A stretch of 63,994 bases of DNA, the filler included, from Octopus bimaculoides (Eukaryota), in assembly GCF_001194135.2 (NCBI RefSeq). It is 5 parts of 5 records of this genome, joined end to end, with 100 filler letters (N's around TTAATTAATTAA, not from the genome) between each part and the next. Parts side by side here need not be neighbours in the genome. Positions count along the whole stretch, not along the records: positions 1 to 19,961 come from NC_068997.1; positions 20,062 to 29,571 come from NC_068987.1; positions 29,672 to 39,528 come from NC_068988.1; positions 39,629 to 53,935 come from NC_069003.1; positions 54,036 to 63,994 come from NC_068984.1. The stretch is one strand, 5' to 3'. The notes under the pieces were generated by a model, which was not told where the DNA came from, did not search any database, and saw nothing but the letters and a program-made list of their open reading frames with translations. This document shows positions 19,772 through 60,552 of this stretch, piece by piece. Each line of letters opens with the position of its first letter. Within the stretch, counting starts at the first letter, position 1. Both the position numbers and the translations under genes were made by a program.

Positions 19772-19815
19772 GGCCAGAGTTCTTTCGTCACACTTCTGTG
19801 ACCTCATCAGTGGTC
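19772..19815 (-). ncRNA. Minimal type-I hammerhead ribozyme motif
   Basis: Minus strand: GGACCA CTGATGA G GTCACA-GAAG-TGTGAC GAAA GAACTC|TGGCC. Canonical core, 6-bp stem II, stem I CCA/UGG, CUC cleavage triplet. Confidence 0.72.
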
Positions 19816-20324
19816 CTTTGCTTTCTTCTTTCTTATGTGTGTCCCACCTTGCTAACTATCAGCCATTTTGTATTTTGTATTCCTATTGTATGTGTCTACG
19901 CATGCATATCCCTCAATGTGTGTCTATGTTTTGTAATGTGTGTCTATATATATATATATATNNNNNNNNNNNNNNNNNNNNNNNNNNNNNNNNNNNNNNN
20001 NNNNNTTAATTAATTAANNNNNNNNNNNNNNNNNNNNNNNNNNNNNNNNNNNNNNNNNNNNTACAGGAATACATACATACATACTTACAAATGTACATAC
20101 ATTCAACCACAAAATCTCTGAGACCTTAATATTGAAAGGATGCTGATGAAAACAAGATTCTTTCTTTCATCACATTCCTTCCTGGTGGGTAGCCGGTCAA
20201 AATTTACTCTAAATTAAAAGCATTGATGAACACACATACAGTCATGCATGCATGCATGCATGCATGCATACATACATACATACATACATACATACATACA
20301 TACATACATACATACATACAGCTA

Positions 20325-20620
20325 ACTACGGAAGAAATACTTTTGGAATTAGGTATTATAAAAGTGGTAAAAATTTTGAAGCTCTGTCAGAAACATTTTA
20401 CCTCAAGAACCGTCTTTGCTCTCGATGAAGAAGATCATGGCCGATTTTTGGCCTTTTGCATGTCGCATTTCGAAAGTTGTGTAGAAGTTGCATACTTCCA
20501 AACAAAAATTCGCTGGAATGATGAAGTTATATTTAAATTCAATGACTCACTTAACCATCTCAATTGTAGCTAGTGAGGCGTGGGGTCCGGGAAATTGGAT
20601 CTCACGACCCAGTAGCAATG
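20325..20620 (+). mobile_element. Tc1/mariner-superfamily transposase fragment
   Basis: LDEEDHGRFLAFC...KIRWNDEVIFKFNDSLNHLNC resembles the ...RRLEFC...ILWSDEAxFxLNGxVNRHNC region around the first catalytic Asp. Confidence 0.6.
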
Positions 20621-21689
20621 GATGTCTACAAATATAAAGGATTAACAAATCTGGCCTAAATTCATAACGATCGAAAATCTGACTCCCTCTAAACTATGAG
20701 ATTCTCCTTACGCACAAAAAAATCAATTTTAACTGAGTTTTCAAACACTTCATTTGTCGTCATTAAACCATATAGTTGGTCACTAAATTATATCTCCTGA
20801 ATGTTACCTACATCAACCAGGTAGAGGAAGAATTGGTCAAAAACTTCACGTCTGATCAAAGTCAAATACACCGCGGTGAGCGTGATCCGTCGATTTCCTA
20901 ATACTTTGTTTCTGACGATCATCATCCTCGACGGGAATTTACTCCCAGCTCTCCATTAATATAAGCCAGATTTCTGACAACGCAAAATCCGGAGGTTGCG
21001 TATTAAAAGGCTAAATATGATATGCATTGCACCACAGTCACATTGTTCGGGATGCCGTATCTATTCTAATCCAATAAGTGAGCTCATATCTGTGCATTCT
21101 ATCTAAATTGGTAACATTAATCACAGGCTTGGGGTCCAGTAGCTGACTAGCCGAAATTTGCGACAAACTCTGCTATCGCTGCTTTCTGATCAAACAAATA
21201 CACTATCTTGATACAACATCTATCTAGTGATTTGAAAATCGCCAGTTATCCGCGCAATTACAAAACTTCTAAAACCACCGACAAACGGCGAAATATTATT
21301 AGCGAATCTAAAAGTTGAGACAATAAATTTAGGGGTAGATTTTGTCCTTAAACCATATGGATATCAAAGAACATCTTTCGATTTATAGATTAACTGACAT
21401 TACCTTCATTTTTGATTTATATTCACCACTTCATCTCGCCCATGCAGCTATATACGAAGACAATTGAAATATATCAGTCACATTTAACAAGATCTACCCC
21501 TACCAACATTGTCTTTATTTTCTAAGACCTTCAATTACCTGATATCTCCCTTGTTTGTTTGTTTTTAGACATTAATTGGATTCTCAAAACATATGGAAAC
21601 AGTTACTCATTACGAAAGGAAAATACACTATGTGAATTCTAAATCCAAAACTTAAATAGCCACTAAATACAGAGGTGTACTGTTATTAT

Positions 21690-21860
21690 ATAGGGTAATC
21701 CCTCGACCATCGTAGGGGTTACGTTCCACAATCCCCTACGATAGGTGAAAATCTGTAAAGTAGAAACAGTACTGTACTGATTTTTTTTTTTATTGTTAAT
21801 ATTTGTAGATATTGATTTTATTATAAATGCAAAACAACACCACAGAGGAATCGACACAAA
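21690..21860 (+). mobile_element. pogo/Tigger-type MITE fragment
   Basis: GTAATCCCTCGA end and internal AAATGCAAAA...GGAATCGAC are shared with 26146-26524. Confidence 0.45.
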
Positions 21861-22064
21861 CCTAAATAATATACCATGCGCTTTACACGATTTGTTATGG
21901 TTATCTCAACAGATATTCTATAAAAATCATAGACATCAATTATATACATATGACGTTTCGTATCCAAACCGTCGTAACAAAAGTCAGTGCTGCCTATAAT
22001 TAAAGTACACTGGTAACACAGTAGAACACGGTATTGACTTATGAAAGGCTTAATATACGTCATA

Positions 22065-22117
<53 letters not shown>

Positions 22118-22479
22118 AAGAGAGAGAATGGCTGCTTTCACTTATACGAGTATACGACAAAGCCATTGCTATTAAGAATCATTGAAATGAGTCATTGATG
22201 GTTCAATGTGATACCTTTATATATGCGCGTGTATATGTGTGTGTGTGAGTTTGTGCTTCTGTGTAAATACATACATATATATATACTTGATGCGTCCAGC
22301 CCTACTCTTCGAAACGCCTGTGTTAGAATGGGGGCAGCTGGTGAAGGAAATGTTCTCTATGTGGCCTGTGTGTTTTCTGTACTTGTTTATCATTTTGTCT
22401 ACGCTTTGTTTACAATGTCCTGTACTCAGATATGCATCTATATATACAGGTAGATGTAAGTATGTACATACATGTACAT

Positions 22480-58559: not shown

Positions 58560-58782
58560 TTTCGTTATGTTTTGGTCGCATTCACGGCAGTTTTTCTTGC
58601 TTGTATCTCCAGAGTGGAAGCAATATTATCGATAATTGCGTTTGACACCCTAGCCGATGACTGATGTTTGTTTTCCGTTCGTCTGTACATTTAGATATAT
58701 ATGTTTTCCAACTTGACCTTCTGTGTCTGTTTTCCGTCCGTTTCTTTATTACAATACGTTCTTTTGACCTCTGAAAATATAG

Positions 58783-58846
<64 letters not shown>

Positions 58847-59050
58847 CCTGTGTGATCCTTCTGTCCGGCATTCGCCATGATAGATCGCTGACCAGCACAT
58901 TTATATTTTTTTTTCTGTGTTCCTTTCAGTTGAAGAGCGTAGGCTCGAAACGTCAAAGACTTTCTCTATTCCCGAGCGTTAAACTAATACATCCATTTGT
59001 TGTTTACACCACCTGTCTTCGTTTGTTGTTTTTTTTTCGTAAATTCTCCC
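58560..59050 (+). mobile_element. Penelope pLTR-like repeat carrying a variant hammerhead-like motif (58923-58958)
   Basis: TTGAAGAGCGTAGGCTCGAAACGTCAAAGACTTTCT.TATTCCCGAGCGT.AAACTAATACA is homologous to about 29692-29745 in reverse. Confidence 0.55.
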
Positions 59051-60054
59051 ATATATATATATATATATATANNNNNNNNNNNNNNNNNNNNNNNNNNNNN
59101 NNNNNNNNNNNNNNNNNNNNNNNNNNNNNNNNNNNNNNNNNNNNNNNNNNNNNNNNNNNNNNNNNNNNNNNNNNNNNNNNNNNNNNNNNNNNNNNNNNNN
59201 NNNNNNNNNNNNNNNNNNNNNNNNNNNNNNNNNNNNNNNNNNNNNNNNNNNNNNNNNNNNNNNNNNNNNNNNNNNNNNNNNNNNNNNNNNNNNNNNNNNN
59301 NNNNNNNNNNNNNNNNNNNNNNNNNNNNNNNNNNNNNNNNNNNNNNNNNNNNNNNNNNNNNNNNNNNNNNNNNNNNNNNNNNNNNNNNNNNNNNNNNNNN
59401 NNNNNNNNNNNNNNNNNNNNNNNNNNNNNNNNNNNNNNNNNNNNNNNNNNNNNNNNNNNNNNNNNNNNNNNNNNNNNNNNNNNNNNNNNNNNNNNNNNNN
59501 NNNNNNNNNNNNNNNNNNNNNNNNNNNNNNNNNNNNNNNNNNNNNNNNNNNNNNNNNNNNNNNNNNNNNNNNNNNNNNNNNNNNNNNNNNNNNNNNNNNN
59601 NNNNNNNNNNNNNNNNNNNNNNNNNNNNNNNNNNNNNNNNNNNNNNNNNNNNNNNNNNNNNNNNNNNNNNNNNNNNNNNNNNNNNNNNNNNNNNNNNNNN
59701 NNNNNNNNNNNNNNNNNNNNNNNNNNNNNNNNNNNNNNNNNNNNNNNNNNNNNNNNNNNNNNNNNNNNNNNNNNNNNNNNNNNNNNNNNNNNNNNNNNNN
59801 NNNNNNNNNNNNNNNNNNNNNNNNNNNNNNNNNNNNNNNNNNNNNNNNNNNNNNNNNNNNNNNNNNNNNNNNNNNNNNNNNNNNNNNNNNNNNNNNNNNN
59901 NNNNNNNNNNNNNNNNNNNNNNNNNNNNNNNNNNNNNNNNNNNNNNNNNNNNNNNNNNNNNNNNNNNNNNNNNNNNNNNNNNNNNNNNNNNNNNNNNNNN
60001 NNNNNNNNNNNNNNNNNNNNNNNNNNNNNNNNNNNNNNNNNATATATATATATA

Positions 60055-60300
60055 TATCTTTTATCTTTTACTTGTTTCAGTCATTTGATTGCGGCCATGC
60101 TGGAGCACCGCCTTTAGTCGAGCAAACCGACCCCCAGGACTTATTCTTTGGAAGCCTAGTACTTATTCTATCGGTCTCTTTTGCCGAACCGCTAAGTTAC
60201 GGGGACGTAAACACACCAGCATCGGTTGTCAAGCGATGTTGGGGGGACAAACATAGACACACAAACATATACACACACATACATACATACATATATATAC
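60055..60300 (-). mobile_element. SINE family A, 3' half
   Basis: Reverse complement of the family A tail. Confidence 0.8.
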
Positions 60301-60516
60301 GTATCTGACGTGGGAATATTTTTGGATGCGTCCAGTTTTGTGATTTATGCATCTCTGTTCTTTCTCTAACTCCATTTTCGCACCTGTTTGCTATAATCTA
60401 TGCATAGCATCAAAGAACACTTATTTTTAAACTTCAATGCCTTAATGATATCAAAACAATAATTGTTCGGAGTTCTGTGTTGATGAAATATGATGAGCAG
60501 AGACTCCAGCAAATAA

Positions 60517-60552
60517 GATCTGAAGAAGGAATCCTAATTCCGAAATATCATC
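60517..60552 (+). ncRNA. Minimal type-I hammerhead ribozyme motif
   Basis: GAT CTGAAGA A GGAAT-CCTA-ATTCC GAAA TATC|ATC. Canonical core, perfect 5-bp stem II, palindromic AUAU stem III, stem I GAU/AUC, AUC triplet. Confidence 0.72.

What the first reader, a model, noticed from the sequence alone, without database searches (positions are those of the whole stretch)
19772..60552. Several independent short elements each carry a minimal hammerhead ribozyme: a possible retrozyme-like/Penelope-dependent RNA system
Seen: five or six hammerhead-like motifs within about 41 kb. The three canonical ones have unrelated stem II sequences (GTCACA/TGTGAC, GGCTG/CAGCT, GGAAT/ATTCC), and the two variant-core copies share a GAG(C)/(G)CTC stem. 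All share one architecture: type I, 3-5-bp stem I, one extra nucleotide between A9 and stem II, and a 1-2-bp, mostly palindromic stem III. Different stems that keep pairing argue against chance. Each sits in a few hundred bp of non-coding sequence, most near microsatellites, with no ORF attached. Established: Penelope-like element pseudo-LTRs and retrozymes carry such minimal hammerheads, which cleave as dimers through the palindromic stem III, and a Penelope RT fragment is present at 22480-23410. Inference: this genome hosts multiple non-autonomous self-cleaving RNA families mobilised by PLE RTs. I cannot tell whether these families are already described.
Basis: partly seen in the sequence, partly recalled or inferred. 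Interest (0 to 1): 0.75.

Follow-up and report, generated by a model that had tools for sequence, protein, structure and literature searches.

The report
Penelope retrotransposon tails carrying hammerhead ribozymes
The five hammerhead (self-cutting RNA) motifs are real, but they are the broken-off tail ends of four protein-coding Penelope-type jumping-gene families, an arrangement already known in animals; one abundant family has a changed catalytic letter in nearly every copy checked, so it likely cuts poorly or differently.

Summary
Five motifs confirmed; the three canonical ones beat shuffles (3 vs 0.03, 0 of 300). The '41 kb cluster' is a packing artefact: the motifs lie on four of five separate stretches, and the RT fragment is on the fifth. 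Each motif is the 3' end (pseudo-LTR) of a dispersed, 5'-truncated Penelope-like element. Longer genomic copies of all four families (A-D) run into RT and/or GIY-YIG ORFs (C: two loci only). No tandem copies (A 0/76, B 0/97, D 0/30); inverted partners are common in A, B and C. So these are the minimal PLE hammerheads of Cervera and de la Pena 2014, not non-autonomous retrozymes. Extras: family D (Neptune-type, roughly 10^4 copies) has a fixed core with U at position 6 (28/29 copies), which I did not find in print; a sixth, missed motif (23628-23666) belongs to the window's own RT and has a U3-A8 core with helix II shrunk to one pair. No clear cleavage footprint in genomic junctions or RNA-seq. 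This scan has noted PLE hammerheads many times before, in this genome too. Ordinary, with modest variant interest.

The parts
19642..19947 (-). Family B PLE 3' end (pseudo-LTR stump), 5'-truncated, at a TA microsatellite
   Evidence: 95.5% to L198, whose 366-aa RT-thumb/Cys-linker/GIY-YIG frame ends about 320 nt upstream of the motif; 2315 first-look candidates
19774..19813 (-). Minimal type I hammerhead B, canonical core CUGAUGA; predicted cut between 19777 and 19776
   Evidence: core intact in 76 of 83 copies that reach it
22487..23765 (+). Family E PLE fragment: RT C-half, frameshift, Cys linker, about 280-nt deletion in the GIY-YIG region, 3' UTR
   Evidence: weak RVT_1 hit E=0.006; 3' end has 1554 candidates
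23628..23666 (+). Sixth, missed hammerhead-like motif E: 7-bp stem I GAGAAAT/ATTTCTC, core TTGAAAA (U3-A8), helix II reduced to one G-C around ACAACA, GAAA CCGG TT
   Evidence: core TTGAAAA in 26 of 30 copies, stem I intact in 25 of 30
29672..29832 (-). Family D PLE 3' end (cut off by the stretch edge); motif D2 at 29705-29741, core CTGTTGA
43886..44050 (+). Upstream part of the family C pseudo-LTR, separated from the motif by a high-copy repeat and a gap
   Evidence: collinear with L201 926-758
44620..44737 (+). Family C PLE 3' end; minimal hammerhead at 44646-44687, core CUGAAGA
   Evidence: 896 candidates, 82-88% identity; L201 holds inverted pLTR + RT + EN tail + pLTR
58846..59071 (+). Family D PLE 3' end; motif D1 at 58923-58958, core CAGTTGA (A4, U6)
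   Evidence: (3183 candidates)
60496..60605 (+). Family A PLE 3' end; minimal hammerhead at 60517-60552, core CUGAAGA; predicted cut between 60549 and 60550
   Evidence: 1226 candidates; 487-aa RT+GIY-YIG frame upstream in L213

Best explanation
Each motif is the hammerhead-bearing 3' end (pseudo-LTR) of a protein-coding Penelope-like element, and the short pieces likely arise when target-primed reverse transcription starts at the element's 3' end and stops early. Shown: dispersed high-copy families, fixed 3' end with ragged 5' ends, RT/GIY-YIG ORFs upstream in longer copies, frequent inverted partners, AT-microsatellite neighbours, no tandem arrays. Inferred from the literature: each family's own RT/endonuclease nicks AT-rich DNA and copies its RNA; the minimal hammerhead would cut only in transcripts with two pLTRs (dimer through the short helix III) or with protein help, trimming precursor RNA; single stumps are likely inert passengers. 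Family D spread to the highest copy number with U6 fixed in the core, so efficient cutting is likely not needed for its spread.
For: A: 19 of 25 loci found with the A GIY-YIG tail have the A motif downstream on the same strand (1 is the seed); L213 is a 487-aa frame with RVT_1 E=1e-13 and GIY-YIG E=0.004. B: four long copies carry RT/EN frames ending 320-440 nt upstream; RVT_1 E=1.6e-5. C: L201 has inverted pLTR, RT, degraded EN, pLTR; L202 shares the ORF tail. D: 9 of 30 loci found with a GIY-YIG segment have the D motif 426-1154 nt downstream on the same strand (1 is the seed; many others end in gaps), and several carry RT upstream. Fixed 3'/ragged 5' ends. Inverted partners A 36 of 76 (both members of a pair counted), B 24 of 97, C 12 of 25; same-strand second copies A 0 of 76, B 0 of 97, D 0 of 30. 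Architecture matches the published consensus NNN CUGANGAH G..C GAAA-palindrome-UH, and most published motifs were also single and tied to truncated PLEs (PMC4209133). Hammerhead mutants did not impair insertion in vitro for an anole PLE (PMC11167929).
Against: No full-length, two-pLTR copy of any family was recovered (assembly gaps), so a non-coding subfamily inside a family is not excluded. The ORF link for C rests on two loci. D had 0 of 30 inverted partners. Only top-ranked or exact-pattern copies were examined (A 76 of 76 pattern hits, B 100 of 115, D 30 of 121; C not tallied for tandems). A few RNA reads in B jump back 181-196 nt (4-5 reads, 2-3 starts), which could be tandem or circular forms. 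The window holds 6 motifs against about 1.8 expected from flank rates (my sum).
Confidence: 0.9

Rival explanations
1. Non-autonomous retrozyme families: short non-coding units that cut themselves out of tandem transcripts, circularise and are copied by a PLE RT in trans.
For: Window copies are short and ORF-less; many copies end at similar AT-rich points upstream (A 40-60 nt, B 83-95 nt); a few jump-back RNA reads in B; earlier scan notes report such retrozymes elsewhere in this genome (not tested here).
Against: No tandem copies (A 0/76, B 0/97, D 0/30); ORF-linked long copies in all four families; helices are minimal, whereas retrozymes carry canonical hammerheads in tandem units (PMC7229834 passages; 10.64898/2026.07.22.740005 part 1). 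The 5' end clusters fall at AT-rich points next to TA microsatellites.
Confidence: 0.05
2. The variant-core families (D, E and sister family F) keep the hammerhead shape under selection: either protein-assisted ribozymes with a relaxed core, or a fold reused as an RT/endonuclease binding site without cutting.
For: D: U6 in 28 of 29 copies sampled by a downstream-only pattern and 9 of 9 ORF-linked copies, where position 7 varies (T, G, A) while G8-A9 stay; helices I, II, III kept. E: U3-A8 in 26 of 30; F: A3-U8 in 4 of 6, so the 3-8 pair is kept by different letters in related families. The anole PLE hammerhead cuts only with its protein. A6C is a natural variant that works with Mn2+ (PMC7151607 passages).
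Against: Fixation in a family needs only one successful founder; no within-family compensatory stem changes seen; D shows 0 of 29 junctions within 21 nt upstream of the cut; E has almost no helix II; no cleavage assay.
Confidence: 0.3
3. Chance matches in AT-rich, repeat-rich DNA.
For: Loose descriptors give many shuffle hits (11.3 vs 18).
Against: Strict descriptor 0 of 300; each motif sits at the expected place in a PLE family and is conserved across its copies.
Confidence: 0.01

Closest known systems
Minimal hammerheads (min-HHR) in pLTRs of metazoan Penelope-like elements (Cervera and de la Pena 2014, PMC4209133; read parts 1-2 of 4 of the text and parts 1-2 of 3 of supplement file 2; file 1 not available)
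   Same: Type I, short helix I, extra nucleotide between 9 and 10.1, tiny palindromic helix III, mostly single copies from truncated PLEs, inverted pairs; the U3-A8 core UUGAAAA is listed for Schistosoma Cercyon; the Acropora Neptune motif (GCU CUGACGAA GGGC UAAC GCUC ... CG UC AGC) has the same layout as family D.
   Different: These families are not among the 56 listed; none of the 56 has U6 (their descriptor required A6) or A3-U8, and none has helix II shrunk to one pair as in E.
Hydra-1_Obim and other Hydra-clade PLE hammerheads (Craig et al. 2021, PMC8557442; passages, File S1 rows and File S2 table read)
   Same: PLE with a 3' hammerhead and (TA)n preference already recorded in an octopus.
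   Different: Different sequence; five motif strings from A-E gave 0 hits in that supplement (line breaks could hide matches).
Neptune-clade PLEs
   Same: D and E endonucleases have the CxxC linker and 'TC-S-N-IY-I-C-C-YIG-T' pattern seen in Neptune1_Nv in the PMC8557442 alignment (by-eye comparison).
   Different: No tree with named references was built; A and B (Cys linkers) and C (Penelope/Poseidon-like by recalled motifs) are not assigned.
Animal non-LTR retrozymes (PMC7229834 passages; bioRxiv 10.64898/2026.07.22.740005 part 1 of 5)
   Same: Type I hammerhead, PLE connection.
   Different: Retrozymes are tandem non-coding units with canonical hammerheads and circular RNAs; these are dispersed ends of coding elements.

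Membership tests
PLE pLTR minimal hammerhead | Core CUGANGA ... GAAA ... UH in type I order | tested here: met
   A, B, C; family majority A 54 of 64, B 76 of 83, C 18 of 25
PLE pLTR minimal hammerhead | Canonical core in family D | tested here: not met
   U6 in 28 of 29, usually with A4; D looks like a min-HHR but is a core variant
PLE pLTR minimal hammerhead | Unpaired nucleotide between A9 and helix II; short helix I | tested here: met
   A, B, C, D; E has a 7-bp helix I and no real helix II
PLE pLTR minimal hammerhead | Minimal palindromic helix III | tested here: inconclusive
   Palindromic in A, D, E; B is AGAACU (2 bp plus AA), window C is ACAU
PLE pLTR minimal hammerhead | Lies downstream of an RT + GIY-YIG ORF of the same element | tested here: met
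   A 19 of 25, D 9 of 30, B 4 long copies, C 2 loci, E in the window
PLE pLTR minimal hammerhead | 5' truncation with inverted partner copies | tested here: met
   A 36 of 76, B 24 of 97, C 12 of 25; not D (0 of 30)
PLE pLTR minimal hammerhead | Weak self-cleavage as dimer or with protein | not testable with these tools
   No assay; junction and RNA-seq proxies inconclusive
Non-LTR retrozyme | Tandem units of about 150-450 nt, each with a hammerhead | tested here: not met
   A 0 of 76, B 0 of 97, D 0 of 30 within 330-430 nt; C not tallied
Non-LTR retrozyme | Non-coding, no own RT | tested here: not met
   Own RT/EN in longer copies
Non-LTR retrozyme | Abundant circular monomer RNA | tested here: inconclusive
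   Only family B laid; ordinary RNA-seq, about 6% of three runs; 4-5 jump-back reads, no pile-up at the cut

The most novel reading that the evidence does not exclude
Neptune-type PLE lineages in this genome keep hammerhead geometry while rewriting the catalytic core: the most abundant family (D, order 10^4 copies) fixed U6 and often A4, family E swapped C3-G8 for U3-A8 and lost helix II, and sister family F uses A3-U8. These would be natural protein- or metal-dependent hammerhead variants, or a ribozyme fold turned into a non-cutting RT-binding signal, and would allow a direct test of what PLE hammerheads are for.
Probability: 0.25. Interest if true: 0.55.

Novelty: new member of a known kind. 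Interest (0 to 1): 0.22.

Why it matters
As found, it adds five uncatalogued PLE families to a class described in 2014 and is a caution: truncated PLE ends look like small ribozyme RNAs, and packed windows create false clusters. The one useful angle is the natural series of core variants (canonical, U6, U3-A8 without helix II, A3-U8) in one genome, a ready panel for the open question whether PLE hammerheads need to cut.

Tried and rejected
Rfam scans gave no hammerhead. Cleavage footprint in genomic 5' junctions, using patterns that start at the predicted cut: A has 1 clear and 2 probable junctions at the cut among 74 scorable copies; B has 0 of 96 at the cut but 9 within 2-9 nt upstream against 2.8 per 10 nt further up (P about 0.002, post hoc), which does not fit an RNA end at the cut; D has 0 of 29. 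Junctions just inside the pattern can pile up at its edge, so A is only suggestive: inconclusive. RNA: no run on record as RNA was listed as holder. Three raw RNA-seq runs with the same species label (one study) gave 777-1040 reads on family B in both mate directions, no pile-up of ends at the cut, and 7 fold-back reads with a joint at the cut; these may come from a genomic inverted copy. A pseudoknot replacing helix II in E was checked by eye: only 4 bp, no covariation in the second subfamily; not supported. Minimum-energy folds of monomers and dimers recover helices I/II in most motifs but do not test activity. The ORF 3 kb upstream of D in L196 is a different PLE and was not counted. Apparent 5'-end peaks at 92 and 103 nt in B are mostly subfamily differences from the reference. 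Literature: searches found no paper on these families or on a U6 or A3-U8 PLE hammerhead; subscription journals, Repbase/Dfam and Arkhipova 2017 (Terminons, recalled, not read) were not seen, and bioRxiv supplements are closed.
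Full report
Observation. The window is a pack of five stretches joined at 19962, 29572, 39529 and 53936. 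A type I descriptor finds three canonical motifs, B (19813-19774, -), C (44646-44687, +) and A (60517-60552, +), and two variant-core motifs, D2 (29741-29705, -, CTGTTGA) and D1 (58923-58958, +, CAGTTGA). The strict descriptor gives 3 against a mean of 0.03 in local dinucleotide shuffles (0 of 300 reach 3); looser ones are not discriminating (3 vs 1.1; 18 vs 11.3). D1 and D2 are two copies of one repeat. The stretches map to C17, C7, C23 and C4; the third was not located. The '41 kb' cluster and the nearness of the RT are therefore artefacts. The genome is 2.34 Gb with about 30 chromosome-sized contigs; that it is an octopus is my inference and the label in earlier scan notes, not tested.

What the motifs belong to. 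Each is in a dispersed repeat: first-look candidates A 1226, B 2315, C 896, D 3183 (lower bounds). Copies share a 3' end and differ at the 5' end. Walking upstream reaches PLE ORFs. A: 19 of 25 loci found with the A GIY-YIG tail have the motif downstream on the same strand, and L213 holds a 487-aa frame with RVT_1 (E 1e-13) and GIY-YIG (E 0.004). B: four long copies hold RT, Cys-linker and GIY-YIG frames ending 320-440 nt before the motif. C: L201 is inverted pLTR, RT, degraded endonuclease, pLTR, and L202 shares the ORF tail; this link rests on two loci. D: two loci share a Neptune-type GIY-YIG segment upstream; of 30 loci found with it, 9 have the D motif 426-1154 nt downstream on the same strand and many others run into gaps. 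The proteins of A, B and D are about 24-32% identical to the window's RT family, so that RT is not their parent.

Arrangement. Among copies sampled with a pattern starting at the predicted cut (A all 76 hits, B 100 of 115, D 30 of 121), same-strand second copies nearby were A 0 of 76, B 0 of 97 and D 0 of 30; inverted partners were A 36 of 76, B 24 of 97, D 0 of 30 and C 12 of 25. Inverted 5'-truncated partners are the described PLE layout (PMC8557442 Fig. 2 legend); tandem units define retrozymes.

A sixth motif. The window's RT fragment (family E, 22487-23765, with a frameshift and a 280-nt deletion in the endonuclease) has at 23628-23666 a 7-bp helix I, core TTGAAAA, one G-C pair in place of helix II, and GAAA CCGG TT. 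The core is in 26 of 30 copies. U3-A8 is a published variant (PMC4209133). A sister family (about 61% protein identity) has the same 3' half with A3 in 6 of 6 and U8 in 4 of 6 loci.

Family D. U6 is in 28 of 29 pattern-sampled copies (CAGTTGA 21, CTGTTGA 3) and 9 of 9 ORF-linked copies. It is a family trait, not decay. In about 0.87 Mb of fetched flanks, off-target copies were D 12, C 6, B 2, A 1, E 0, which puts D near 1 per 51 kb, of order 10^4 copies (flanks of repeats are a biased sample). The same rates predict about 1.8 motifs in the window's 56 kb of called bases against 6 seen, a mild excess in a window picked for this trait. A6 changes usually hurt cleavage in Mg2+; A6C is a known natural variant, and A6U is not mentioned there (PMC7151607 passages).

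Does it cut? Not shown. Genomic junctions at the predicted cut: A 1 clear and 2 probable of 74; B 0 of 96, with 9 junctions 2-9 nt upstream; D 0 of 29. Three RNA-seq runs (one study, about 6% read) cover family B, including its ORF, in both mate directions with no pile-up of ends at the cut; 7 fold-back reads join at the cut and 4-5 reads jump back 181-196 nt. These proxies are inconclusive. Published work finds min-HHRs silent as monomers and weak as dimers; an anole PLE hammerhead cuts only with its protein, is not needed for insertion in vitro, and left no read ends in RNA-seq (PMC11167929 passages).

Mechanism. Shown: structure and distribution as above. Inferred: each family's RT/GIY-YIG protein nicks AT-rich DNA and copies its own RNA from the 3' end, usually stopping after 50-300 nt, sometimes adding an inverted piece; the hammerhead lies 100-150 nt from the 3' end and so survives in most stumps. 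It would work only in transcripts of partial-tandem loci or with protein.

Comparison and verdict. A, B and C meet the testable features of PLE min-HHRs (Cervera and de la Pena 2014) and fail the retrozyme tests; a PLE hammerhead from an octopus is already tabulated (Hydra-1_Obim). I found these families and the U6 and A3-U8 cores in no paper (searches; supplement look-ups), but Repbase/Dfam and closed journals were not seen. The scan's index holds 1914 notes with these words in at least 64 genomes, 6 in this genome, and none by sequence for family D. Verdict: new members of a known kind; interest 0.22, with a 25% chance that the core variants are functionally meaningful.

Noticed in passing
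L125, L127, L128, L129, L133, L135 (3' UTR): Sister PLE family F: helix I AAAGCA/TGCTTT, core ATGACTA-type (A3-U8 in 4 of 6), short helix II, GAAA CCGG TA.
   Followed up: partly
L185, L251, L365, L446 flanks: Four further single motifs with U3-A8 cores, 4-5-bp helix II and a 4-nt helix III insert; likely more PLE families with this variant.
   Followed up: no
L196:4085-6439 (-): A broken PLE ORF resembling the Hydra clade (by-eye comparison) lies 3 kb upstream of a D copy, apparently a separate insertion.
   Followed up: no
L298: A family A copy has lost the whole hammerhead by a deletion between the two halves of helix I.
   Followed up: no
family B, 2-9 nt upstream of the predicted cut: 9 of 96 junctions cluster here; possibly RT stalling at the foot of the fold. 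Unexplained.
   Followed up: partly
window 30935-31587, 38371-38826, 44074-44621, 48362-48650, 51408-51694, 60047-60299 and others: Many copies of two or three very abundant short repeats (recalled as octopus SINEs, not tested) flank or interrupt the PLE stumps; one splits the family C copy.
   Followed up: no
window 916-1323 (-): 135-aa frame with a weak SCAN-domain hit (E 0.0009), likely a fragment of a Gypsy-type gag.
   Followed up: no
window 27466-27876 (+) and 49604-50482 (-): Short frames resembling Tc1/mariner transposase pieces (recalled motifs; no Pfam hit for the first).
   Followed up: no
L200:4080-5490 (-): Fragments of a different non-LTR RT with a zinc-finger tail next to a family B copy.
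   Followed up: no
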